Shown piece by piece: positions 21,246 through 32,120 of a stretch of 64,000 nt of DNA. Positions within the stretch are counted from its first letter, which is position 1; every line of letters starts with the position of its first letter. Under the pieces are notes generated by a model that saw only the letters and a program-made list of their open reading frames with translations, had not been told where the DNA came from and searched no databases. The DNA lies in contig JAGBHO010000047.1 of the NCBI GenBank assembly GCA_017935485.1, positions 2,285-66,284 on the forward strand, in the 5' to 3' direction. The position numbers were made by a program, and so were the translations under genes. The DNA comes from Alphaproteobacteria bacterium. Its GTDB lineage: Bacteria > Pseudomonadota > Alphaproteobacteria > RF32 > CAG-239.

Positions 21246-21530
21246 TTAATCAGGCGAGCTGAACAGGATGACCACAACGGGTATAATGCTGTTGTGAGAG
21301 ATGATACTGTTCAGCCATTCTGTTTTTTCTGATGCTTGTTTTTGAGACGGTGAAGGTCCGGTCGTTGCAAAGTTCGGATGCGGAACAGGCGCGGAATTGG
21401 CCGAATCTCCAGCAATACAATAATAGTATCTGGGCGAAAGCGGCGTGCAGGCCTGATGGTAAGATGAGCAAGAACAGCAAACAACTCCCAAAACAAGTAT
21501 CAGTGCAATCAATAATTTTTGCGTTTTCAT
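21246..21530 (-). CDS. Small Cys-rich secreted/lipoprotein candidate
   Basis: 94 aa with signal peptide; TTGACA-17-CTATAT promoter overlapping the palindrome TTGACAGGTGATTGTCAA. Confidence 0.3.
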   Translation of the reverse strand: MKTQKLLIALILVLGVVCCSCSSYHQACTPLSPRYYYCIAGDSANSAPVPHPNFATTGPSPSQKQASEKTEWLNSIISHNSIIPVVVILFSSPD

Positions 21531-21697
21531 AAATAATATATTTTATAATTTGTTTCTGTAAAAAATATAGAGTTTTTGACAGGTGATTGTCAACCGGGAT
21601 TGTTATTTGCAAACAGCAAAAGGGAATTTGTGAATAAAAAAATAAAAAAGGTATTGACGGAGCAGAAAAGATATTATACATATAAAACCGAACTTGC

Positions 21698-21784
21698 GGA
21701 GAGTTGGCAGAGTGGTAATGCAGCAGATTGCTAATCTGTCATCCCGATTGGGATGCATAGGTTCGAGTCCTATACTCTCCGCCA
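21698..21784 (+). tRNA. tRNA-Ser (anticodon GCU), long variable arm, encoded CCA
   Basis: Cloverleaf by inspection: acceptor GGAGAGT/ACTCTCC, anticodon loop UUGCUAA, extra arm, T-arm GGTTCGAGTCC. Followed by a rho-independent terminator (21786-21818). Confidence 0.85.
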
Positions 21785-21848
21785 TTAAAAAACCGTCCTT
21801 TGGGGCGGCTTTTTTTTATGCGGAGAGCCGTTTTACGGAAAATCGTAT
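21768..21848 (+). repeat. Direct repeat copy A: last 14 nt of tRNA-Ser plus its terminator plus ~30 bp
   Basis: About 80 bp, ~95 percent identical to copy B 216 bp downstream. Confidence 0.85.
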
Positions 21849-21983
21849 TTTCCATAAAACGCATAGGACTATTCCTCAGGAACGTAAGCGCGCAGCGGTT
21901 GCTTGGGCTTCCCTTGCTTGCCAACGTTTTCTGAGACGTTGCAGATAAAAACAGCCATTACTTTGGCTGTTTTTACTTAGCCG

Positions 21984-22064
21984 TTCTATACCCTCCGCCA
22001 TTAAAAAACCGTCCTTTGGGGCGGCTTTTTTTTATACGAAGAGCCGTTTTATGGAAAATGTTGA
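21984..22064 (+). repeat. Direct repeat copy B: att-like duplication of the tRNA-Ser 3-prime end and terminator
   Basis: CTATACCCTCCGCCATTAAAAAACCGTCCTTTGGGGCGGCTTTTTTTTAT...; sits at the boundary of the AT-rich cas island. Confidence 0.85.
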
Positions 22065-22076
22065 AAACAGGAAGTT

Positions 22077-23381
22077 TTACCTTGTCTGCAGGTTTTTCAA
22101 ATGTTGCAATTGCAATGTTGACGGGGCATTGTCAAAGTTACTGTGCGTAATGCTGTTATTATCCGGCTTGATACCCTGGCCGTGCCGACCGGCCTTTTTT
22201 ACCAGTCTGTCAATGTATTTTTCGTCTTCCGTGCCGCCGTTTAATAGGTTTTGTATTGCCTTGTTTTCTTCGGAATTCGGACGGATAAGCCGGTACATGG
22301 TGAAAGCATGGGCGTATTGTTTTATGCTGTTTTCACTATCCGGCGAGATTTTTCCGTCTTTTGCCAAACCGGCAATCTGATTGTACAGTTTTTGCACTTT
22401 GTCAGCCGATTTCAAATGAATTTGCAATGCGGTATCGTAATAATCCCCGGTAATAACGGTTTCTGCAGCTTTAGCGAAGTCTGCCGTTTTTTTCTGATTT
22501 GCCGACGTCTGCCGTACAGGCGTTATTTGGGTTTCTTTGGCCGGTTTAACGGGTGGTGTATAGGTATAATTGATTTCTTTCATAATGTTTTTGCCCAGAA
22601 AGAACGAAACAGCAACCGTTGCTCCCAGTAATACAAAGTTTTTTATTTTGCGGCTCTGTCTGTGCAGGCGATATTTGAAAATTTCAGTTTTATCCTGAAG
22701 TTTGTTTTTCAGGTCTTTGAATTTTAAGGTTAAAATTTTTGTAAAGTCTGCTTTCTTTTCGGCGGGAGCGGGTGTTTTTATCGGCAGCGGGTTTGTGCGG
22801 GATTTTTGAGCGGTTTTAACATGCTGCAGATTGTAATTGTTGACAAGTTTTTGATGCTCCGGATTCTGTCCGTTAAATTGTCTGTTGTTTTTTAACAAAG
22901 AAAGGCAGAGCAGGGCATAGCTGTCTGCTTTTTGGCGCAGCTTTTTATCGCCAGGATTTTTCTTTAGGGTTTCATTTATGATATTGAGCTCTGCCGCGCT
23001 TAATTGTCGGGCAGTTTTTTTGCTGTTCAAGATGTCTGTAACAATTTTAATTTTTTTCAGAGTTTCCAACCGTTGAATGGTTTGAGTCATTAACGCTTTT
23101 TTGCGTTCCAGACGATGCAATGCCTTTTGCATTTGCAGGGATGTCAGGCGATTGGCGTGATATTTTAAGGTATAAATCAGGTCTTCAATGTCTTTGAAAG
23201 CCTTGGGTTCGGTTTCAATCCGGTCGTTCAGGTAGTCGTCTATCATTCGGATGCTTTGATCATAAATAGCCTGATCGCAGCTGCTGAAGTAGCTGTTTGT
23301 TTTTCTTGAATGCCCGACAGATGCCTGACTGGCAATACACAGTTTGATTTGGTCGCGTGACACATATGTTTTTGCGGGCAT
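22077..23381 (-). CDS. Hypothetical bitopic membrane protein (cytoplasmic coiled-coil N-domain, one TM, periplasmic C-domain)
   Basis: 434 aa; the only long ORF here; no recognisable catalytic motif. Confidence 0.45.
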   Translation of the reverse strand: MPAKTYVSRDQIKLCIASQASVGHSRKTNSYFSSCDQAIYDQSIRMIDDYLNDRIETEPKAFKDIEDLIYTLKYHANRLTSLQMQKALHRLERKKALMTQTIQRLETLKKIKIVTDILNSKKTARQLSAAELNIINETLKKNPGDKKLRQKADSYALLCLSLLKNNRQFNGQNPEHQKLVNNYNLQHVKTAQKSRTNPLPIKTPAPAEKKADFTKILTLKFKDLKNKLQDKTEIFKYRLHRQSRKIKNFVLLGATVAVSFFLGKNIMKEINYTYTPPVKPAKETQITPVRQTSANQKKTADFAKAAETVITGDYYDTALQIHLKSADKVQKLYNQIAGLAKDGKISPDSENSIKQYAHAFTMYRLIRPNSEENKAIQNLLNGGTEDEKYIDRLVKKAGRHGQGIKPDNNSITHSNFDNAPSTLQLQHLKNLQTR

Positions 23382-23589
23382 TTAAGCCTCCGGAAATTGT
23401 AAAAAATGTGGGAATATGACTAAATATATCATTTTGTTAAATTTTGTCAATATATATTTTTTATGTTTTCGGGAATAAACGACAGGAAAGGTTTGACGGA
23501 CGGTATCATTGCGGAGATAATGAAAACGGAGAGGGAAACGGGGGAAAATAACCCGAGTTTTTGGAGGGAGTGAAAGGCGGCAGGACATT

Positions 23590-23976
23590 ATGAGAGTGTT
23601 GACAATCTGGCACTTGTATGCACAGGCTTTGGCTGACGGGATCAAAATATATGAAACCCGCACATGGAAGACAAAATATCGGGGGCCGGTGGCGATTCAT
23701 ACTTCTGCGCGTCCGATGTCGGCGGAGGACAGGGCTCTGGCGCAGGAATTCGGCGTGGAAGGCATAAAAAGGGGGTATATCGCGGCCATAGCCGATTTAA
23801 CGGAATGCATTTTAATGGATGAAGCGTTTATTGCCGCGCAGACAGAACAGGAGCACCGGCTCGGCTGCTGGAAAAAAGGAAATTATGCATGGAAGTTTGA
23901 AAATTTCAGAAAGCCGGAACGAGACATTTATCTTTCCGGCCGTCAGGGATTATGGACAGTCGATTGGGATTTGTGA
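23590..23976 (+). CDS. ASCH-domain protein (PUA-like fold)
   Basis: 128 aa; ASCH-like pattern with conserved Lys/Trp (IKIYETRTWKT...GCWKKGNYAWKF). Confidence 0.5.
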   Translation: MRVLTIWHLYAQALADGIKIYETRTWKTKYRGPVAIHTSARPMSAEDRALAQEFGVEGIKRGYIAAIADLTECILMDEAFIAAQTEQEHRLGCWKKGNYAWKFENFRKPERDIYLSGRQGLWTVDWDL

Positions 23977-24026
23977 TGAGATTTTGTTAGAGATTCCAAA
24001 ATGTTATAACCATTGGAGGAGAAAGA

Positions 24027-24944
24027 ATGGATAGACAAATCATTGAAATAATGAATGACGGTTTTAGTTTGTCTTTGTACAGAGGCTTTCTTGTGGTTGA
24101 AAATAAGGAAAGAAAATTGAAGCAGGAAGTACCGTTAGACAATATTTTGGCATTGGTTTTGTCAGCTAATAATATTATGATTTCTAAAAATATTATTGAT
24201 GCGATTTGTGAACAAGGCGGATGTATTATTTTTTGCGGAAAGACTTATCTTCCTTCAGCAATTACTCTGCCTTATACAGGTCATTGGCTGATAGCCCCCA
24301 GAGTGAAGCAGCAGATTGATTGTTCGAAACCTTTACAAAAAAATTTATGGAAGAGTATTGTTCAAAATAAGATTTTTAATCAGGCTAAAATTTTAGAATT
24401 CTTTTTTCCGGAACATTCTAATATTGCTCGTTTAAAACAGTTGGCTAAAGAAACTTTAAGTGATGATGTCCGAAATAATGAAGGGGTGGCCGCTTCTTTA
24501 TATTTTAAGTCTTTGTTTGGAAAAAAATTTGTCAGAGAACGTTTGAATGATGATGTGAATATTTTATTGAATTATACTTATACTGTTTTAAGAGCTATGG
24601 TTGCACGTGCTGTTGCTGGAAATGGGTTGTTACCTTATTTGGGACTCAAGCATTGTACAAAATCTAATCCGATGCCTCTGGTTGATGATTTAATTGAACC
24701 GTTTCGGGCTATGGCTGATAAAATTGTTTTTGAGGAAATTAACAAAATAATTAATATTGAGCATATTGATCTAACTCCGGAAATTAAAAGAAATTTGGCA
24801 AGAATTATCTCGGTTCCTGTTGTAACAGAAAAGGGATGTGTTTCTTTAACAGATGGAGTTTATGATTTTGTAGGGAGTTTGGTTGATAGTTTTGAGGTTA
24901 AAAAAGTGTTATTGAAATATCCTGAAATCTTGGTGGACAAGTAA
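24027..24944 (+). CDS. cas1: CRISPR-associated endonuclease Cas1, type II
   Basis: 305 aa with GGAGGAG SD; strong block similarity to type II Cas1 (GLKHCTKSN...IEPFRAMADKIVFEE versus Spy FGLKHANQFN...MEPFRPLVDKIVYEN). Confidence 0.9.
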   Translation: MDRQIIEIMNDGFSLSLYRGFLVVENKERKLKQEVPLDNILALVLSANNIMISKNIIDAICEQGGCIIFCGKTYLPSAITLPYTGHWLIAPRVKQQIDCSKPLQKNLWKSIVQNKIFNQAKILEFFFPEHSNIARLKQLAKETLSDDVRNNEGVAASLYFKSLFGKKFVRERLNDDVNILLNYTYTVLRAMVARAVAGNGLLPYLGLKHCTKSNPMPLVDDLIEPFRAMADKIVFEEINKIINIEHIDLTPEIKRNLARIISVPVVTEKGCVSLTDGVYDFVGSLVDSFEVKKVLLKYPEILVDK

Positions 24945-25002
24945 GATGAAGAGGTGTTAATCCGAGATATGTTATTATTATATTCGAGCAGAATGCGCCG
25001 CA

Positions 25003-26226
25003 GTTATAGTTGACTGTCTAATTAATCTCTGATATGCTTTACGAAGAAATTGAAAATGCCATGTTCCAGTTATAGTTGACCGTCTAATTAATCTCTGATA
25101 TGCTCCTCACTATCATATGATAATCATGAACTGGGTTATAGTTGACCGTCTAATTAATCTCTGATATGCTGAAATGCGAAACTTCCCGCGTACAGCAACT
25201 GTTATAGTTGACCGTCTAATTAATCTCTGATATGCTCGATGAAAAAATCGAATTTGAAAAAATCGAGTTATAGTTGACCGTCTAATTAATCTCTGATATG
25301 CTATGTTCTGCTTGCTGCCGATGAAGCGGTCAGTTATAGTTGACCGTCTAATTAATCTCTGATATGCTTGATTGCTTTGGCCGCTTTCTTCTTTATTTGT
25401 TATAGTTGACCGTCTAATTAATCTCTGATATGCTTTTTCCAAAGGATTCGGCTGTGCCTGCTGTGTTATAGTTGACCGTCTAATTAATCTCTGATATGCT
25501 ATTGGCGTTTTGGGAAGATGTGAAGAAAGTGTTATAGTTGACCGTCTAATTAATCTCTGATATGCTGTTCGAGAAATTCTTAAAAAGGCATATCCTGTTA
25601 TAGTTGACCGTCTAATTAATCTCTGATATGCTCGGTTGTCGCCTTTGGGGCTTCTTCCGCTTGTTATAGTTGACCGTCTAATTAATCTCTGATATGCTAA
25701 AACTATACATTACATGAAATACCCTTATGTTATAGTTGACCGTCTAATTAATCTCTGATATGCTTGCCTCGATGATGAAAGCCTTGGCTATTGTGTTATA
25801 GTTGACCGTCTAATTAATCTCTGATATGCTATTTCTTTTTTGTGGGTAGGTACATCATTTGTTATAGTTGACCGTCTAATTAATCTCTGATATGCTTCAC
25901 CAGTCTGGCTCAACACAGGCCACATAGTTATAGTTGACCGTCTAATTAATCTCTGATATGCTTAAGGAAATGATGTGTCATAATCAGGTTGTGTTATAGT
26001 TGACCGTCTAATTAATCTCTGATATGCTCTTTCATATTACGACTAATACGATGACGATGTTATAGTTGACCGTCTAATTAATCTCTGATATGCTGTTGGT
26101 GGTTCTAAAGGTGCTTCTGCTGTTGTTATAGTTGACCGTCTAATTAATCTCTGATATGCTCCCGCAATTCTTGGTATAAGTCCGCCTTGTGTTATAGTTG
26201 ACCGTCTAATTAATCTCTGATATGCT
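25003..26226 (+). CRISPR. CRISPR array: 19 x 36-bp repeats GTTATAGTTGACCGTCTAATTAATCTCTGATATGCT, 18 spacers of exactly 30 bp; cas1-proximal repeat degenerate (C13T)
   Basis: Perfect 66-bp periodicity. Plus-strand transcription inferred from tracr anti-repeat complementarity and a plus-strand terminator after the array. Confidence 0.97.
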
Positions 26227-26237
26227 ATATAATAGTT

Positions 26238-26276
26238 TAACGCCTTGAAATATATTTATTTTAAGGCGTTTTTATA
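26238..26276 (+). terminator. Hairpin AACGCCTT-N-AAGGCGTT followed by TTTTAT; likely terminates array transcripts
   Basis: Inverted repeat with 3-prime T-run on the plus strand only. Confidence 0.55.
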
Positions 26277-26300
26277 AAATAAAAATATAAAAAAATTTTA

Positions 26301-26663
26301 TTAAAAAAGCAGAAGTTGGCCGTTTTTTTCACGAATCTCTTCTTCATTTTCTTCATAATTGTCACCAAGATAGTTTTCTGTCATCAAATATTGTTTATCT
26401 GTTATATAAATGAAGGAGACAGAAGAGTTATCTGGAATAAATTTTGATAATTTTTTTGTAGTCGTCTGACCGACGGCCAGACTTTTGACAGGTTTGATGT
26501 ATACGGAAAATTGTTTCATAACAAAACCATTATCGAGTAGAATATTACGAAAGCGGGTTGCTTTGCGCATTTCTGTTCTGGTTCTGACCGGAATATCAAA
26601 CATGCATATTATCCACATCATAGACCATCCGGTTAAGGTTTCAGGCCGCTGTCTTCTTGCCAT
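26301..26663 (-). CDS. cas2: CRISPR-associated endoribonuclease Cas2, type II
   Basis: 120-aa ORF (probable start MMW...); MFDIP...FRNILLDNGFVMKQFSVY matches the type II Cas2 N-terminus. Overlaps the cas9 stop. Confidence 0.85.
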   Translation of the reverse strand: MARRQRPETLTGWSMMWIICMFDIPVRTRTEMRKATRFRNILLDNGFVMKQFSVYIKPVKSLAVGQTTTKKLSKFIPDNSSVSFIYITDKQYLMTENYLGDNYEENEEEIREKNGQLLLF

Positions 26664-29600
26664 TCCATAGTACCTTATGTTTTTTCTTTATTTTGCCAAA
26701 AGGTGTCAGTTCAATTTTTCGGGCTTTGTGAGAGGTATAATATGATAGACCTTTTCTTAATGTATTAACAAAAGTATATTTTAATGATTTATCTTTAGGA
26801 GAGGTCATTCTGGCATCTGTTATATAATCGATGTTGAACTCTCCTTCACTAAATTTTTTTACTTTGGCGAAGCATCTTTCTTTATCAGTGTAGTTTTTCC
26901 ATTCATCTGGTGTATCCAGTTCCAAAATGTCGCCTTGTTGAATTGACCAGATAATTTTTCCACCGTCTTTTTTCCATTGCGGCATAAAATCTGTTTGGTT
27001 GGCATCAAAGCGTTTGATAACTTCCCAGCCGACTTTTCCGTCTTTTTGATAAAAGTCTACACAATGGTTATTTTGGGCTTCATAAGCAACTCCATGTTTG
27101 GGAATATTAATCATAGATGAACTGTTTGTATAACATTTGAATTTATCGCCTTTCCATAGTCCTTTGTCTTGAACAATATAAAAAGCCTTTGTTAAAATCC
27201 GGCTTTCGGTAATTTTGATTTCTTTTTTGCCTTCAGCAACGGCTTTTTCATTTTCTGCAATTAGGATTTGTTCTGCCGTATTCATATAAAGTTCAATGTC
27301 TTGAACGAGTTTGGCCTGTTTTATTTTATTTTCAATAATTTCAGGGTGCCATTCATTTTTTATAGTTTCCGGGATGAGCAGTTTATTTAAGTCTTTAGCA
27401 GTCTTGACAACTTGTAAAATTTTTCTGGAATATACCGTGATTAAAGAATTTTTGTCGTCAGGATTTGAGCACAAAACTGTTCTGCCGGTTTCCTTATGAA
27501 ATTGTCCGGCTTTGCTGTGATCCGGTTTATGAGAAACATTGATTTTTTTCAGGCAGCTAATTACTTTTCTTCTGAAATCTGCAGTAGATTCAACAGAGAG
27601 TAAGGGCAGGGGATAATAAATTTTGTTAAGGTCTGTTTCCTCAGCCATTTTTTGAATGAGGCTGCGATTGGCACAAGCTACGGTGATTGCATCCATCGCA
27701 TGATGGCGGTGATCAATTCGGGGTTTGGCCATCCATTCTTTATTTTTTATCTTATCAAAAATTTCTCCGGTATGAGGATTGACTCTTTCTTCGGCTAATT
27801 TGAAATAGCGCGGAATATCCAATCCTATTAAGTCATATTCAAGTCCCAGTAAATTCCAATGTTGGCGTAATTTTGCCGTTTGAGCCCCTCTTACGGCAAG
27901 AATTCTGTTTTGCATGACTTCATCACAATCTGAACAATCGACAATTGCCCTTAAATATCTTTGGGCCATTTTTGATACGTAGCGCGTGTCTGTCAAATAG
28001 CGTGTTGATTCTTCTTTGTCGCCGCCATCTTCATATTTTTCTCTGGTATCAGCTTCAAAACGCCAGGCTTTGTTTTTTAATCTGTCGCGGGCATTTTTTA
28101 GGATTTCCCGAATCATTTCCGGTGTTTTTTGAGAATCTTGTGATTCAAAATATTCATAGGCATATCGATCACCTTTAGTCAGATTGTCATTACGGTTGAC
28201 CAGACAAAGGTTGTTATAGGCATCGGTTCCGCCTTTAGCTTGCGGAATAATATGTTCAATTTCCATTCCGCCAAAGGTTGAAGAAATATTTTGGGTCGGA
28301 TTATAGGCGTCTTTCCAGCCTTGTTCTTTGGCCAATTTATATTTCAGAATATTTTTGTATGTAATCGGAAGGTTGTGTTCCTTAAGGTGCTTTTTCGCTT
28401 CTTCGTTTAGTTTTTCATTTCTTTTTTGTTCTTGTTCAAATTCGTTTTTCTTTTTGACAGACATGCCGACATCGCGGCCGACTTCTATATTTATTTCATA
28501 GGGTTTTCCATAAATTTTGATGATCTCGTTAACGACAAGACGGATTTGGTTAAGAATCATGTGAACTGCCGGATTGGCAATCTTACCGTATTTTACTTCA
28601 TCTTGATTTAGATTTTTATTATTGGCAATGGTCAAAGGAGGTAACGGTTGAGTATCTGTTTGCAATATTTTACCGTAATACGGGAGTTCAAAACAGTGTC
28701 CTTGGTTTTGTCTTGCAATTTCCTCTTCTGCCATAAATCTGGAATCATTTTTTGATAGTTCATCCGTAATTTCTCTATGGGAGCAGATGTTTTGTTTTAA
28801 TTTTTCCAGGATAATTTGGGTTGCCGATAAACCTATCATTCCTCGGCCTTTAGGCAATTTTGTCAGTAAATTTCCTATTTCTTTATCATCATTAATTTTT
28901 AGTAATGGTTTTATATGCTCAATCAATGCATCTTCATTGTAAAGACGGCCCTTAGAATCGTTTGAATCTTTAGGTTCTGCCAGAAATTCTATAAAAGATG
29001 AAAGTTCTTGGAATGTTAATTTTTGAATATATTCATTTTTTGCGAATTCAGGACGGGAATAGAGATAGGCTTTGATAATCTTATCATCTGCTAAAGATAT
29101 TTTTTGTTGAGCAGAGAGGTTTAGAATTTTTTTTATGGACTGTTTTCCAGCATTTTGGCCTTTTAATAACAGCTCATTAATAATTGTATCTCGTTCTTGA
29201 AGAGTTAATTTTCTTTTTCCCATATCGCTTATAATGCGGATGTTATTGGTTTCTTCATATATTCTCCGTATTTCTGACAAGGGATGTGCTTTTAACAGAC
29301 GGTCTTCTTCTCTGAAATAAATACATTTTCCGACAGCGTAAGGAGCGGTCGGACGTTCATAGAACAGGATATTATAAATTTCTCGTTTAAGACCGTCTTT
29401 GTTCATTTGAGGGAAATATTGCGCCTGCATATCCCAGATTTTATTAAATTCATCTTTTACTAAATAGCGGGGGATGGCATAATCAACAATATTTTTCTCC
29501 AGTGCATATTTTTTTTGACGGATGATTCTGTTATGTGGGTTTTCTTTGTCCTGAAGCCGTTTGTAAAAGAACTCACCAATGGTTTGCGAGTTGGTATTTT

Positions 29601-30072
29601 TTAAATATAGCGGCAATTTTTCGTAGGAAGATGTTTTAACTTTTGATTGCTCTTCTTCCTGACTTTCATTTAAGGTTTCTTCGACGGCCGAAACAAATCC
29701 TGCTCCGCGATGTTTGGCCAAATGAAGAATGGCTCGTCCGATATAGTTAGCATTATCAAGTTTTTGTTTTATTGCGTCATAGCGTATTTTATAGGGAGAT
29801 TTTGATTTGAGTTTATCCGTTCCTTCGGGAGAATTGTCGACCCAAAGATTATTGGCATAGAGTTTTTGTGCTAACAGTTCTAACCGTTTTCGCGTTCTGA
29901 TTAAATTTTTACGGGCTGTTCTTTTTAGTCGTCTTTCTTCAGCCCCTTCGGAAACTTCAAAAATTCTAACACCTGCATCAATGATATCTTGTGCATTATT
30001 GTTACCATCCAGTTGTATGATTGCACTTCCGATTGAACTTACCCCTAAATCAAGGCCGAGACGATATTTCAT
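26641..30072 (-). CDS. cas9: Cas9, 1143 aa (type II-C size class)
   Basis: RuvC-I GLDLGVSSIGSAII at the N-terminus, HNH (IEHIIPQAKGGTDAYNNLCLVNRNDN), RuvC-III HHAMDAITVA. AGGGGG SD; markedly AT-rich relative to flanks. Confidence 0.95.
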   Translation of the reverse strand: MKYRLGLDLGVSSIGSAIIQLDGNNNAQDIIDAGVRIFEVSEGAEERRLKRTARKNLIRTRKRLELLAQKLYANNLWVDNSPEGTDKLKSKSPYKIRYDAIKQKLDNANYIGRAILHLAKHRGAGFVSAVEETLNESQEEEQSKVKTSSYEKLPLYLKNTNSQTIGEFFYKRLQDKENPHNRIIRQKKYALEKNIVDYAIPRYLVKDEFNKIWDMQAQYFPQMNKDGLKREIYNILFYERPTAPYAVGKCIYFREEDRLLKAHPLSEIRRIYEETNNIRIISDMGKRKLTLQERDTIINELLLKGQNAGKQSIKKILNLSAQQKISLADDKIIKAYLYSRPEFAKNEYIQKLTFQELSSFIEFLAEPKDSNDSKGRLYNEDALIEHIKPLLKINDDKEIGNLLTKLPKGRGMIGLSATQIILEKLKQNICSHREITDELSKNDSRFMAEEEIARQNQGHCFELPYYGKILQTDTQPLPPLTIANNKNLNQDEVKYGKIANPAVHMILNQIRLVVNEIIKIYGKPYEINIEVGRDVGMSVKKKNEFEQEQKRNEKLNEEAKKHLKEHNLPITYKNILKYKLAKEQGWKDAYNPTQNISSTFGGMEIEHIIPQAKGGTDAYNNLCLVNRNDNLTKGDRYAYEYFESQDSQKTPEMIREILKNARDRLKNKAWRFEADTREKYEDGGDKEESTRYLTDTRYVSKMAQRYLRAIVDCSDCDEVMQNRILAVRGAQTAKLRQHWNLLGLEYDLIGLDIPRYFKLAEERVNPHTGEIFDKIKNKEWMAKPRIDHRHHAMDAITVACANRSLIQKMAEETDLNKIYYPLPLLSVESTADFRRKVISCLKKINVSHKPDHSKAGQFHKETGRTVLCSNPDDKNSLITVYSRKILQVVKTAKDLNKLLIPETIKNEWHPEIIENKIKQAKLVQDIELYMNTAEQILIAENEKAVAEGKKEIKITESRILTKAFYIVQDKGLWKGDKFKCYTNSSSMINIPKHGVAYEAQNNHCVDFYQKDGKVGWEVIKRFDANQTDFMPQWKKDGGKIIWSIQQGDILELDTPDEWKNYTDKERCFAKVKKFSEGEFNIDYITDARMTSPKDKSLKYTFVNTLRKGLSYYTSHKARKIELTPFGKIKKKHKVLWNGKKTAA

Positions 30073-30155
30073 GTTTTACCCCCTTTAATTGTGTTTATGT
30101 TCAGGGTATAATATTTTTGTTGACTTTTCAATCGAATTATTGTAATAATTAATCA

Positions 30156-30262
30156 TTGTGTGTGATGGTTTTTTTCAGAGATTAATTAGACGGCCAACAC
30201 ATATATAATAAAGCTGAAAATGCTGTAAAATGAGGGAGGGATTTTATTCCTCCCATTATTTT
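30156..30262 (+). ncRNA. Predicted tracrRNA, divergent from cas9
   Basis: TTGACT-17-TAATAA promoter (30120-30148). Anti-repeat CAGAGATTAATTAGACGGCCAAC (30176-30198) complementary to repeat nt 1-23 with one mismatch. Terminator GGGAGGG-ATTTTATT-CCTCCC plus U-run (30234-30262). Confidence 0.6.
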
Positions 30263-30308
30263 GTCGGACGGCGATGATGGCAGCTGCAATTCTCTGTCAG
30301 GGCGGTGA

Positions 30309-30785
30309 TCAGCGGCTGCAACGGTTTTTTCCGCGTTTTTTGAGGTAGTCCTGATGGTAGTCTTCCGCCGGATAAAAGGTTTTGGCCGGAACGACTTCCG
30401 TGACTATCGGGGCGGAAAAGGCTTTGTGTCTTTTTAGTTCGGTGATTTTATCGACGGCGGCCGTTTTTTGCTTTTCATTCAGATAAAAAATCGCGGAACG
30501 GTACTGGGTGCCGATGTCCGGCCCCTGGCGGTTTAAGGTCGTCGGATTATGAATTTTGAAGAACACGTCCAGCAATTGTTCGTAGCTTATCAACTGCGGG
30601 TCATAAGTGACTTCTACCGCTTCGGCATGTCCGGTTTTACCGCTTGAAACCTGTTCGTAGCTTGGGGCCGAAGTGGTGCCGCCGATGTATCCGACCTGAG
30701 TGGAATAGACGCCGGGGGTGCTGTCAAATGCCGACTGCACACTCCAAAAGCAGCCGGCGGCGAAGATGGCATGGGCCAGACTCAT
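30309..30785 (-). CDS. msrA: Peptide methionine sulfoxide reductase MsrA
   Basis: Start at MSLAHAIFAAGCFWSV (GCFWS active-site motif); the ORF-track N-terminal extension was rejected. Confidence 0.85.
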   Translation of the reverse strand: MSLAHAIFAAGCFWSVQSAFDSTPGVYSTQVGYIGGTTSAPSYEQVSSGKTGHAEAVEVTYDPQLISYEQLLDVFFKIHNPTTLNRQGPDIGTQYRSAIFYLNEKQKTAAVDKITELKRHKAFSAPIVTEVVPAKTFYPAEDYHQDYLKKRGKNRCSR

Positions 30786-30935
30786 TTTGCTTCTCCTTTG
30801 TTTGTTTTCTTTGAATATAATTTCTGTTCGGCACATATAAAGTCCGGAGTACTTTTTTATTCTTTCTCTCTTTAAGCTTTTATTTCGGTGATTATATATG
30901 CAGAAGTTATTGTTTGGGATGATAAGGAGAAAAAG

Positions 30936-31850
30936 ATGAAGACCATTGATTTGGATAATGACAGCAAAATGCCGATTATAGGTTTGGGGACGTGGAAAGC
31001 GTCTGCCGGTGAGGTTTATCAAGCCATTCGCTGGGCAATAAAATTAGGATATCAGCATATTGACTGTGCACCGTGTTATGGCAATGAAGACGAGATCGGG
31101 CAGGCGATTCATGATGCGATTGCCGAGGGCGACATCAAGCGCGAGCAATTGTTTATTACCTCAAAATTATGGAATGACAGCCATGCGCCGGAAGACGTGA
31201 TGTCGGCATTGCAGAAGACATTGGACGCTTTGCGGCTGGATTATCTGGATTTGTATCTGATGCATTGGCCGGTTGCCCAGAAAAAGGGCGTTATGCTGCC
31301 GGAGAGTGCGGATGATATGGTTTCTTTGTCCGAGCTTCCTTTGGAGGTGACTTGGGCCGAAATGGAAAAGATTCAGCGGCAGGGGTTGGTCGAATCAATC
31401 GGTGTATCTAATTTTGGCGTTAAAAAGCTGCAGGCTTTGCTTGAAAAAGCGGAGATTATGCCGAGCGTAAACCAGTTTGAACATCATCCTTATTTGCAAC
31501 AGCCGGAGCTGGTGGATTTGTGCCGTAAGAATAACATTGCCGTGACGGCTTATTCGCCGCTCGGGTCGGGAGATCACAGCATTGAAAACGAACCTGTTAT
31601 TTTGGAAATTTCCAAAAGATTAAAGGCTTCTCCGGCTCAGGTGCTTTTGGCATGGGCCATGCAGCAGGGGATTGCCGTTATTCCGAAGTCTGTCAATCTG
31701 GGGCATATCAAAGAAAATTTTGAGGCTCAGAGTCTTGTTTTGGACGGCAAAGATATGGAAGACATTGCCAAGCTGGATAAAAATCATCGTTTTATCGACG
31801 GCGCGGCTTTTGCTTTCGGTGATTATACCATTGAGAATATTTGGGAATAA
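30936..31850 (+). CDS. Aldo/keto reductase (AKR family)
   Basis: Start MKTIDLD with AAGGAG SD; IGLGTWK and LMHWP motifs. Confidence 0.8.
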   Translation: MKTIDLDNDSKMPIIGLGTWKASAGEVYQAIRWAIKLGYQHIDCAPCYGNEDEIGQAIHDAIAEGDIKREQLFITSKLWNDSHAPEDVMSALQKTLDALRLDYLDLYLMHWPVAQKKGVMLPESADDMVSLSELPLEVTWAEMEKIQRQGLVESIGVSNFGVKKLQALLEKAEIMPSVNQFEHHPYLQQPELVDLCRKNNIAVTAYSPLGSGDHSIENEPVILEISKRLKASPAQVLLAWAMQQGIAVIPKSVNLGHIKENFEAQSLVLDGKDMEDIAKLDKNHRFIDGAAFAFGDYTIENIWE

Positions 31851-31886
31851 GGTTGTACGGCCGAGCGTAATTTTGAACGGAGAATA

Positions 31887-32120
31887 TTGATGACAATGAA
31901 TGTTTTGGAAAGAGCCAAGAAACTGCATAACCAGGCAGGGAAGAGTATTATTGCCGGCAGAAATGCCTGGACAAGTGTTGTAACTGCGGATTTTGAAGCT
32001 TTTTTGTTTCAGAATGCCGGGCAGACTTATCCGCGTCCGGCAGCCTCAAAGCAGATTTTTGATTGGGAAAACTGGGCCTTGCGGGATGTGTCCGAGCAAA
32101 AACCTATGTATCGGAATTAA
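31887..32120 (+). CDS. Hypothetical small protein (77 aa)
   Basis: ORF only. Confidence 0.25.
   Translation: MMTMNVLERAKKLHNQAGKSIIAGRNAWTSVVTADFEAFLFQNAGQTYPRPAASKQIFDWENWALRDVSEQKPMYRN

What the first reader, a model, noticed from the sequence alone, without database searches (positions are those of the whole stretch)
24027..30262. Type II-C-like CRISPR-Cas with cas1 displaced and inverted to the far side of the array
The canonical order is cas9-cas1-cas2-array. Here cas9 (30072-26641, minus) is followed directly by cas2 (26663-26301, minus; their ends overlap), then the array (25003-26226). An intact cas1 with a good SD lies beyond the degenerate terminal repeat in the opposite orientation (24027-24944, plus), next to an ASCH-domain gene. 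cas1 therefore reads toward and could co-transcribe into the array, whose crRNAs are also plus-strand. The arrangement suggests either a rearrangement or replacement of the adaptation module, or a distinct locus organisation.
Basis: seen in the sequence. Interest (0 to 1): 0.62.

Follow-up and report, generated by a model that had tools for sequence, protein, structure and literature searches.

The report
Type II-C CRISPR locus, cas1 beyond array
This is an intact Cas9 (type II-C) CRISPR immune locus whose spacer-inserting gene cas1 lies alone on the far side of the repeat array, and that unusual gene order is the normal layout for a large group of gut Alphaproteobacteria, not an accident of this genome.

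Summary
I added three parts:
- a tracrRNA gene (~30156-30263, +);
- a sigma-70-like promoter inside each repeat, so crRNAs are plus-strand;
- a conserved leader with a terminator hairpin next to cas2.

The order cas9-cas2-array-cas1(inverted) is not specific to this genome. It occurs in 37 of 53 assessable species-representative genome loci and in 19 of 20 assessable metagenome contigs of the same Cas9 clade. The other loci carry cas1 just upstream of the tracrRNA gene (8), or inverted between cas2 and the array (9, distant relatives). None has the canonical cas9-cas1-cas2 operon. This excludes misassembly and a private rearrangement.

Cas1 is a type II Cas1 with its catalytic residues intact, and it co-diverges with Cas9 overall. 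At fine scale, cas1 reassorts independently of a tracrRNA-cas9-cas2-array cassette.

Arrays that share spacers share them at the cas1 end and differ at the cas2 end. New spacers therefore enter next to cas2, and adaptation is active in this layout.

Verdict: a functional II-C system with a clade-typical, apparently undescribed architecture. Interest is moderate.

The parts
24027..24944 (+). cas1 (305 aa), a type II Cas1. It forms its own transcription unit and reads toward the old (trailer) end of the array.
   Evidence: Aligns to S. pyogenes Cas1 4ZKJ. E152, H209 and E224 are invariant in 51 clade Cas1 sequences.
24938..25002 (+). Possible decayed 20th repeat (24938-24973) that overlaps the cas1 stop codon, followed by a 29-nt relic spacer. 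Uncertain.
   Evidence: The 3' half matches the repeat at 13 of 17 bases and lies one base out of the 66-nt register. The stretch is conserved in two sister strains.
25003..25038 (+). Terminal (oldest-end) repeat with one substitution, C13T.
   Evidence: The same variant is present in strains L080 and L081.
25003..26226 (+). CRISPR array of 19 x 36-nt repeats (GTTATAGTTGACCGTCTAATTAATCTCTGATATGCT) and 18 x 30-nt spacers. crRNAs are plus-strand. Each repeat carries TTGACC-17 nt-TATGCT with a TG extension.
   Evidence: Repeat orientation relative to cas9 is identical in all related loci.
26227..26300 (+). Leader, at the end where new spacers are acquired. It holds a 13-bp hairpin (26240-26269) followed by a T run, which would act as an intrinsic terminator for plus-strand array transcripts.
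   Evidence: Fold energy -18.5 kcal/mol, z = -4.3. The hairpin, its TTTCAAGG motif and the ~77-nt length are conserved in 45 loci. Acquisition polarity comes from shared spacers.
26301..26663 (-). cas2 (120 aa). Its start lies 23 nt inside the end of cas9.
   Evidence: The overlap and the N-terminal MARRQRxETLTGWS sequence are conserved across the clade.
26641..30072 (-). cas9 (1143 aa), type II-C-like, with RuvC and HNH motifs conserved.
   Evidence: The nearest solved structures are the ~1080-aa Cas9 entries 9ar4, 6jdq and 6kc8; that these are Neisseria-type II-C enzymes is from my own knowledge.
30139..30166 (-). Candidate cas9-cas2 promoter (ATCACA-16 nt-TACAAT).
   Evidence: Consensus scan only; inferred.
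30120..30149 (+). Candidate tracrRNA promoter (TTGACT-18 nt-AATAAT with TG), divergent from cas9.
30156..30263 (+). tracrRNA. Anti-repeat at 30175-30198 (23 of 24 bases complementary to repeat positions 7-30), nexus-like stem at 30212-30224, terminator hairpin at 30234-30254 followed by a T run.
   Evidence: The anti-repeat is conserved ~100-130 nt upstream of cas9 on the opposite strand in nearly all related loci and changes together with the repeat. Nine of 15 predicted pairs show compensatory changes.

Best explanation
This is a complete and probably active type II-C CRISPR-Cas9 locus built in the layout typical of its clade.

**Expression (inferred unless stated).**
- A tracrRNA is transcribed on the plus strand, divergently from cas9.
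- cas9 and cas2 form one minus-strand operon. The cas2 start lies inside the end of cas9.
- Each repeat carries its own promoter, so crRNAs start a few bases into each spacer and run on the plus strand toward cas2. This is the mechanism described for Neisseria.
- A conserved hairpin terminator in the 74-nt leader between the array and cas2 would stop these transcripts before they run antisense into cas2 and cas9.
- cas1 is a separate plus-strand gene at the old end of the array. With no terminator in between, its transcript should read into the array.

**Adaptation.** New spacers are added at the cas2-proximal, transcription-downstream end. Cas1 therefore has to be made independently of Cas2 and then assemble with it.

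**Shown here by computation:** gene identities, the tracrRNA, conservation of the layout, acquisition polarity across the clade, and independent reassortment of cas1.

**Inferred, not shown:** promoter use, read-through from cas1, termination at the leader hairpin, and any regulatory benefit of uncoupling cas1 from cas2.
For: **Components.**

**Repeat promoters and tracrRNA.**. Repeat variation across the clade keeps the TG-n-TAnnnT pattern.

**Layout is the clade norm.** In species-representative genomes, 37 loci have cas9-cas2-array-cas1(inverted), 7 have cas1 upstream of the tracrRNA, and 9 distant loci have cas9-cas2-cas1(inverted)-array; none is canonical. In gut metagenome contigs the counts are 19, 1 and 0.

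**The leader is at the cas2 end.**
- The first repeat is perfect in all arrays, and degenerate repeats occur only at the far end.
- The leader hairpin is conserved.
- Arrays that share spacers share the cas1-proximal ones and differ at the cas2 end. L086 and L129 share the distal 11-12 spacers, while the first 6 and 8 are unique. Further cases are L013/L110, L089/L105, L009/L099 and L100/L112/L122.

**Evidence of use.** The spacer nearest the leader matches an IMG/VR viral contig at 28 of 30 bases.

**The locus is one unit.** It forms a low-GC block (32-38% against 43-52% in the flanks) running from cas1 to the tracrRNA.
Against: - There are no expression data. Promoters and terminators are consensus matches only.
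- No convincing promoter was found for cas1 in the window. It may depend on the upstream ASCH-like gene.
- In two sister strains (99.5% and 93% nucleotide identity) the spacer next to the cas1-proximal repeat differs from the window's. That is not what a stable old end predicts. It requires deletion or whole-array turnover in this lineage.
- Only one of seven spacers tested has a viral match.
Confidence: 0.85

Rival explanations
1. The order is a recent rearrangement private to this genome, or an assembly error across the repeats.
For: Repeat arrays are known to break or confuse assemblies. Sister-strain contigs do end inside the array.
Against: The same order and orientation occur in 37 species-representative genomes and 19 metagenome contigs from independent assemblies. 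The cas1-to-terminal-repeat junction is reproduced in two other samples. Both array flanks are unique sequence inside a 64-kb contig.
Confidence: 0.02
2. The adaptation module was replaced from another kind of CRISPR system (foreign cas1), which would explain its odd position.
For: Within the clade, cas1 does have a partly separate history. Eight of 18 locus pairs with Cas9 at 90% identity or more have Cas1 at only 66-74%.
Against: Cas1 scores as type II (NMENI) Cas1, 239 bits. Its best database hits fall at 100%, 98% and then 80% or below, mirroring Cas9, and every hit that carries a source name is a type II or generic Cas1 from Alphaproteobacteria MAGs or JGI records. Cas9 and Cas1 distances correlate at r = 0.92 overall. 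All exchange seen is between members of the same clade.
Confidence: 0.04
3. The cas1-proximal end is the real acquisition end, and cas1 sits next to its integration site.
For: Three closely related strains each carry a different spacer next to the cas1-proximal repeat.
Against: Spacers shared between arrays of the clade are always at the cas1-proximal end. The C13T variant is not copied into repeat 2, as duplication of the integration repeat would require. Degenerate repeats accumulate only at that end. The conserved leader lies at the cas2 end.
Confidence: 0.05
4. cas1 is a stranded, functionless remnant and the array is a fossil.
For: cas1 is separated from cas2. Three related loci have no cas1 within 7-10 kb (L037, L042, L076).
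Against: cas1 is full length with E/H/E invariant in 51 sequences. Arrays differ at the leader end between close relatives. No spacers are shared among 933 from different species, which indicates continuing turnover.
Confidence: 0.04

Closest known systems
Neisseria meningitidis type II-C CRISPR-Cas9 (NmeCas9 locus)
   Same: The gene set is the minimal one, cas9, cas1 and cas2, with no csn2 or cas4. Repeats are 36 nt and spacers 30 nt. An extended -10 promoter lies at the 3' end of each repeat. The array is transcribed toward the cas genes and antisense to cas9, and spacers are acquired at the transcription-downstream end (PMC3737331, PMC12477760, PMC12638026). The nearest solved Cas9 structures are of this type.
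   Different: The Neisseria locus is a cas9-cas1-cas2 operon. Here cas1 is removed from the operon, inverted and placed beyond the array, and cas2 overlaps cas9 directly. Cas9 similarity is distant: phmmer E 1e-43 for the best solved structure (9ar4, residues 1-741), and about 1e-39 with residues 496-741 as the best stretch for the Neisseria-type entries.
Campylobacter jejuni type II-C locus
   Same: It is a minimal II-C system with promoters in the repeats and an array transcribed opposite to the cas operon (PMC3737331).
   Different: The gene order is the canonical cas9-cas1-cas2. The position of its tracrRNA gene is from my own memory and was not checked here.
Related II-C loci in Desulfovibrionaceae (Mailhella) and Planctomycetes MAGs (L058-L077)
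   Same: They belong to the same Cas9 clade at 33-48% identity. The cas9-cas2 overlap, the inverted cas1, the repeat orientation and the tracrRNA upstream of cas9 are all shared.
   Different: cas1 lies between cas2 and the array, and the leader faces the cas1 start. In the window the array lies between cas2 and cas1.
Streptococcus pyogenes type II-A locus
   Same: It uses Cas9, a tracrRNA and Cas1-Cas2. The window's Cas1 aligns to SpyCas1 4ZKJ.
   Different: II-A has csn2, a promoter in the leader, an array co-directional with the cas genes, and acquisition at the transcription-upstream end.

Membership tests
Type II CRISPR-Cas | Cas9 effector with a split RuvC domain and an HNH domain | tested here: met
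   TIGR01865, 469 bits. Pfam RuvC_III and HNH_4. D8, H607, N630 and the DHRHHAMDA motif are invariant in 26 clade sequences.
Type II CRISPR-Cas | tracrRNA with an anti-repeat complementary to the CRISPR repeat | tested here: met
   Anti-repeat at 30175-30198, 23 of 24 bases. Conserved and co-varying in relatives. Expression was not tested.
Type II-C | Gene content limited to cas9, cas1 and cas2, with no csn2 or cas4 | tested here: met
   Only these three cas ORFs lie between 24027 and 30263. The flanking ORFs tested are ASCH-like, MsrA, aldo-keto reductase, NUDIX, ZIP and LpxK, plus three with no family match in any library searched.
Type II-C | 'Conserved cas9, cas1, cas2 operon' (Chylinski 2013, PMC3737331) | tested here: not met
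   The order is cas9-cas2 / array / cas1 on the opposite strand. No locus of the clade has the canonical order. Current classification rests on Cas9 phylogeny and gene content, not on gene order (PMC12669027).
Type II-C | Cas9 placed in the II-C branch of the Cas9 tree | tested here: inconclusive
   The size (1143 aa) and the best solved-structure hits, to ~1080-aa Cas9s that I take to be Neisseria-type, fit II-C. It is not Cas9d: 127 bits against a cut-off of 375. No tree including reference II-A, II-B and II-D sequences was built.
Type II-C (Neisseria/Campylobacter mode of crRNA biogenesis) | Promoter embedded in each repeat, with crRNA 5' ends formed by transcription | tested here: inconclusive
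   TTGACC-17-TATGCT with TG occurs in every repeat, and the TAnnnT pattern is preserved across clade repeat variants. These are consensus matches without RNA data.
Type II-C | Spacer acquisition at the 3' (transcription-downstream) end of the array | tested here: met
   Shared spacers lie at the opposite, cas1-proximal end in every informative array pair of the clade. The window's own lineage was not informative.

The most novel reading that the evidence does not exclude
In this clade the module boundaries of the CRISPR locus have shifted. cas2 is welded to cas9 by an overlapping reading frame and travels with the tracrRNA, leader and array as one exchangeable cassette. cas1 stays behind as a resident gene with its own transcription. 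The nearly invariant repeats of the array, which lies between the two modules, may be the crossover site that allows cassettes to be swapped next to cas1, and in either orientation. This would explain the 'cas1 upstream' variants. If so, the layout may uncouple control of adaptation (Cas1 supply) from interference. It may also point to a direct Cas9-Cas2 partnership in spacer selection.
Probability: 0.3. Interest if true: 0.6.

Novelty: new variant of a known kind. Interest (0 to 1): 0.4.

Why it matters
Textbook type II-C loci are described as a cas9-cas1-cas2 operon. Here a whole lineage, common in human and animal guts, keeps cas1 apart from cas2 and still acquires spacers.

This shows that Cas1 and Cas2 need not be co-expressed from one operon. 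It also provides a natural case in which the effector cassette (tracrRNA-cas9-cas2-array) and cas1 recombine independently.

Three practical consequences follow:
- Automated tools that expect cas1 next to cas2, or that orient arrays from cas gene direction, may mis-call these loci.
- The clade offers compact Cas9 orthologues (~1150 aa) with tracrRNA and repeat already defined.
- The layout gives a testable handle on whether Cas1 supply limits adaptation.

Tried and rejected
- **Rfam.** A scan of 22000-32000 found no known RNA family for the tracrRNA.
- **Inverted repeat copies flanking cas1.** I tested whether such copies could have flipped cas1. No repeat-like sequence above chance was found in the 400 nt upstream of cas1 in the window or in 32 relatives. 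A resemblance at 23990-24010 is therefore treated as chance.
- **Conserved cas1 promoter.** The upstream regions are not conserved across the clade.
- **Leader-end spacers of the 99%-identical strain.** Its contig ends in the first repeat.
- **Shared spacers among species-representative loci.** None among 933. The polarity test succeeded only after the metagenome scan with the repeat.
- **Exact leader-junction scan of metagenomes.** No hit.
- **Cultured-phage database.** Only a borderline 30/33 match of spacer 2 to a microvirus. Six of seven spacer scans of IMG/VR were empty, so no PAM could be derived.
- **Literature.** Six full-text searches found no description of this gene order. Chylinski 2014 (NAR) is not held, so prior description in a figure or supplement cannot be excluded.
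- **Anti-repeat/repeat recombination as the origin of the 'cas1 upstream' form.** Considered on paper and rejected, because it would separate the tracrRNA promoter from the body of the gene.
Full report
**1. The observation**

The ORF list gives cas1 at 24027-24944 (+), cas2 at 26301-26663 (-) and cas9 at 26641-30072 (-).

- Pfam and NCBIfam identify them as Cas1 (TIGR03639, type II/NMENI, 239 bits against a cut-off of 120), Cas2 (TIGR01573) and Cas9 (TIGR01865, 469 bits). PADLOC agrees.
- cas2 begins 23 nt inside the end of cas9.
- The array at 25003-26226 has 19 repeats of 36 nt (GTTATAGTTGACCGTCTAATTAATCTCTGATATGCT) and 18 spacers, all 30 nt.
- Only the cas1-proximal repeat differs, by one base (C13T).
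- A much weaker relic of a further repeat may overlap the cas1 stop codon.

**2.

*Repeat promoters.* Each repeat contains TTGACC, 17 nt, then TATGCT preceded by TG, on the plus strand. This is the repeat-embedded promoter arrangement known from Neisseria II-C, where crRNAs start inside the spacer (PMC12477760).

*tracrRNA.* Upstream of cas9 on the plus strand lie:
- a promoter-like site at 30120-30149;
- a 24-nt anti-repeat at 30175-30198, 23 of 24 bases complementary to repeat positions 7-30;
- a short stem;
- a GC-rich hairpin with a T run at 30234-30263.

In the related loci the anti-repeat sits ~100-130 nt upstream of cas9 on the opposite strand and changes together with the local repeat. 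An alignment of 20 such RNAs has compensatory changes in 9 of 15 predicted pairs. This is the tracrRNA. crRNA and tracrRNA are both plus-strand, antisense to cas9.

*Leader.* Between the array and cas2 lies a 74-nt AT-rich stretch with a 13-bp hairpin followed by a T run (z = -4.3).

*Base composition.* The block from cas1 to the tracrRNA is 32-38% GC against 43-52% in the flanks. cas1 therefore belongs compositionally to the locus.

**3. Is the gene order peculiar to this genome?**

No. Cas9 has more than 100 homologues at 63-79% identity. Of the five that carry a source name, three are from MAGs labelled Alphaproteobacteria.

*Species-representative genomes.* A scan with a Cas9 alignment returned 77 loci, most of them from MAGs labelled Alphaproteobacteria. 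I located cas1, cas2 and arrays in each by tblastn and a repeat detector:

| Layout | Loci | Notes |
|---|---|---|
| cas9-cas2-array-cas1(inverted) | 37 | as in the window |
| cas1 just upstream of the tracrRNA, then cas9-cas2-array | 7 | |
| cas9-cas2-cas1(inverted)-array | 9 | distant: Planctomycetes and Desulfovibrionaceae, Cas9 33-48% identical |
| canonical cas9-cas1-cas2 | 0 | |

The remaining loci were cut by contig ends. Three have no cas1 within 7-10 kb.

*Metagenome contigs.* A scan with the repeat sequence added 49 contigs, mostly from gut samples. Nineteen show the window's order, one the upstream variant, and none the canonical order.

*Shared features of the clade.*
- Repeat orientation relative to cas9 is the same in every locus.
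- The cas9/cas2 overlap and the Cas2 N-terminus MARRQRxETLTGWS are conserved throughout.

Misassembly and a private rearrangement are therefore excluded. The layout is a lineage trait.

**4. Which end of the array is active?**

- In all arrays the cas2-proximal repeat is perfect. Degenerate repeats, up to three in a row, occur only at the far end.
- The cas2-to-array distance is ~77 nt in most loci. It contains a conserved hairpin (GCCTTGAAAT-N7-ATTTCAAGGC, with compensatory variants) about 15 nt from the first repeat.
- The array-to-cas1 distance varies from overlap to more than 1 kb.

The direct test came from the metagenome arrays. Wherever two arrays share spacers, the shared ones are the last, cas1-proximal ones, and the cas2-proximal ones differ.
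- L086 and L129 share the distal 11-12 spacers and have 6 and 8 unique ones at the cas2 end.
- L013/L110 and L089/L105 share the last three.
- L009/L099 share the last two.
- L002/L091/L126 and L100/L112/L122 share the last one.

These are loci with the window's layout. Spacers therefore enter next to cas2, which is the 3' end in crRNA sense, as reported for II-C (PMC12638026). Adaptation is active with cas1 on the far side. cas1 sits at the trailer.

**5. Did cas1 come from elsewhere?**

Cas1 aligns to S. pyogenes Cas1 (4ZKJ), and E152, H209 and E224 are invariant in 51 clade sequences. Its database hits have the same profile as those of Cas9: 100% and 98%, then 80% or below, and every hit that carries a source name is a type II or generic Cas1, from Alphaproteobacteria MAGs or JGI records. 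Pairwise distances of Cas9, Cas1 and Cas2 correlate at r = 0.92-0.96. A foreign origin is not supported.

At fine scale the picture differs.
- Of 18 locus pairs with Cas9 at 90% identity or more, 7 have Cas1 at only 66-74%, while Cas2 stays at 90% or more.
- Conversely, L022/L057 have Cas1 at 99% and Cas9 at 83%.
- L022 shares its flanks with L055 and, on the cas1 side, with L057, and its cas1 with both. Its tracrRNA-cas9-cas2-array block is 94% identical in DNA to L021, which lies in a different genomic context and has the other cas1 position.
- The homologous block ends at the tracrRNA 3' end on one side and inside the array on the other.

So cas2 travels with cas9, the tracrRNA and the array as a cassette, and cas1 behaves as a separate module. 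In the Cas9 tree the 'cas1 upstream' form appears several times inside the main form. This fits cassette insertion in either orientation next to cas1. That the repeats act as the crossover site is my inference.

**6. How it most likely works**

A divergent promoter pair drives the tracrRNA (+) and cas9-cas2 (-). Repeat promoters give plus-strand crRNAs that pair with the tracrRNA and load Cas9. The leader hairpin stops plus-strand transcripts before cas2. cas1 is expressed separately and reads into the old end of the array. No terminator is predicted between them, and in six relatives the stop codon is about one base from the terminal repeat. Cas1 then assembles with Cas2 made from the cas9 operon and integrates spacers at the leader. 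The steps after the sequence features are inferred from knowledge of II-C systems.

The leader-proximal spacer matches an IMG/VR viral contig at 28 of 30 bases. This is modest evidence of real use.

**7. A caveat**

Two short contigs from other samples carry this cas1 (99.5% and 93% nucleotide identity), the same junction and the same C13T repeat. The one spacer they contain differs from the window's first spacer and from each other. Given section 4, I attribute this to deletion or array replacement, but it is unexplained.

**8. Comparison and novelty**

By gene content, Cas1 type, Cas9 size and nearest structures, repeat promoters and acquisition polarity, this is type II-C and works like the Neisseria system. 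It fails one historical descriptor, the 'conserved cas9, cas1, cas2 operon' (PMC3737331). Current classification does not use gene order (PMC12669027).

Six literature searches found no description of this order. One key paper was not available.

I rate it a new variant of a known kind, ordinary in components and unusual in architecture. It stays above the baseline because of the shifted module boundary and the independent reassortment of cas1.

Noticed in passing
window 23590-23976 (+): The ORF upstream of cas1 is only weakly ASCH (Pfam E 1e-4) but matches phage protein family phrog_3193 (unknown function) at E 9e-26. It lies 50 nt before cas1 on the same strand with no terminator predicted, so the two may be co-transcribed. 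It is not a conserved neighbour of cas1 in other loci.
   Followed up: partly
window 21250-23663 (-): A lower-GC stretch (~41%) holds ORFs of 143, 434 and 93 aa with no match in Pfam, NCBIfam (434-aa ORF only), PADLOC or PHROGs. It lies directly beside the CRISPR locus and may be part of a small island of unknown genes.
   Followed up: partly
window 26641-26663; all related loci: The cas2 start overlaps the last 23 nt of cas9 in 39 loci. Cas2 carries a conserved basic N-terminal extension (MARRQRxETLTGWS) ahead of the Pfam Cas2 domain. Cas2 is also the most conserved of the three proteins (85-94% identity where Cas9 is 65-79%).
   Followed up: partly
L080 1545-1698, L081 1581-1734, against window 24945-25098: Sister strains share the cas1-to-array junction and the C13T terminal repeat. 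Each has a different spacer next to it, which is unexpected for the old end of an array.
   Followed up: partly
L037, L042, L076: These related loci have tracrRNA, cas9, cas2 and a complete array but no cas1 within 7-10 kb on either side. cas1 is either remote or lost.
   Followed up: no
L066 14154-22604: A complete-chromosome Alphaproteobacteria MAG carries an array of 128 repeats of this family directly after cas9-cas2.
   Followed up: no
L079 8011-8040 (-); window 26161-26190: The spacer nearest the leader matches IMG/VR contig IMGVR_UViG_3300035517_000278 at 28 of 30 bases, with 3' flank GTACCGGT. Spacer 2 (25105-25134) matches a faecal microvirus (PQ007319) at 30 of 33 bases, a borderline hit. 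This is too few to define a PAM.
   Followed up: partly
L010, L027, L031, L038, L048 (record titles): Contigs carrying this same locus type are binned as Gastranaerophilales, Bacteroidaceae or (protein P0108) Lactobacillales. This suggests binning errors, or transfer of the locus beyond Alphaproteobacteria.
   Followed up: no
L018, upstream of cas9: Its tracrRNA region carries an apparent duplication of the nexus stem (GGCTGATTGGCGCAAGCTGAAAATGCCGCAAG), and the anti-repeat sits unusually close to cas9 (42-69 nt).
   Followed up: no
L011, L028, L041 (cas2-to-array gap ~150 nt); L011, L019 (array-to-cas1 gap >1 kb): Some loci have enlarged intergenic regions on either side of the array. Their content was not examined.
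   Followed up: no
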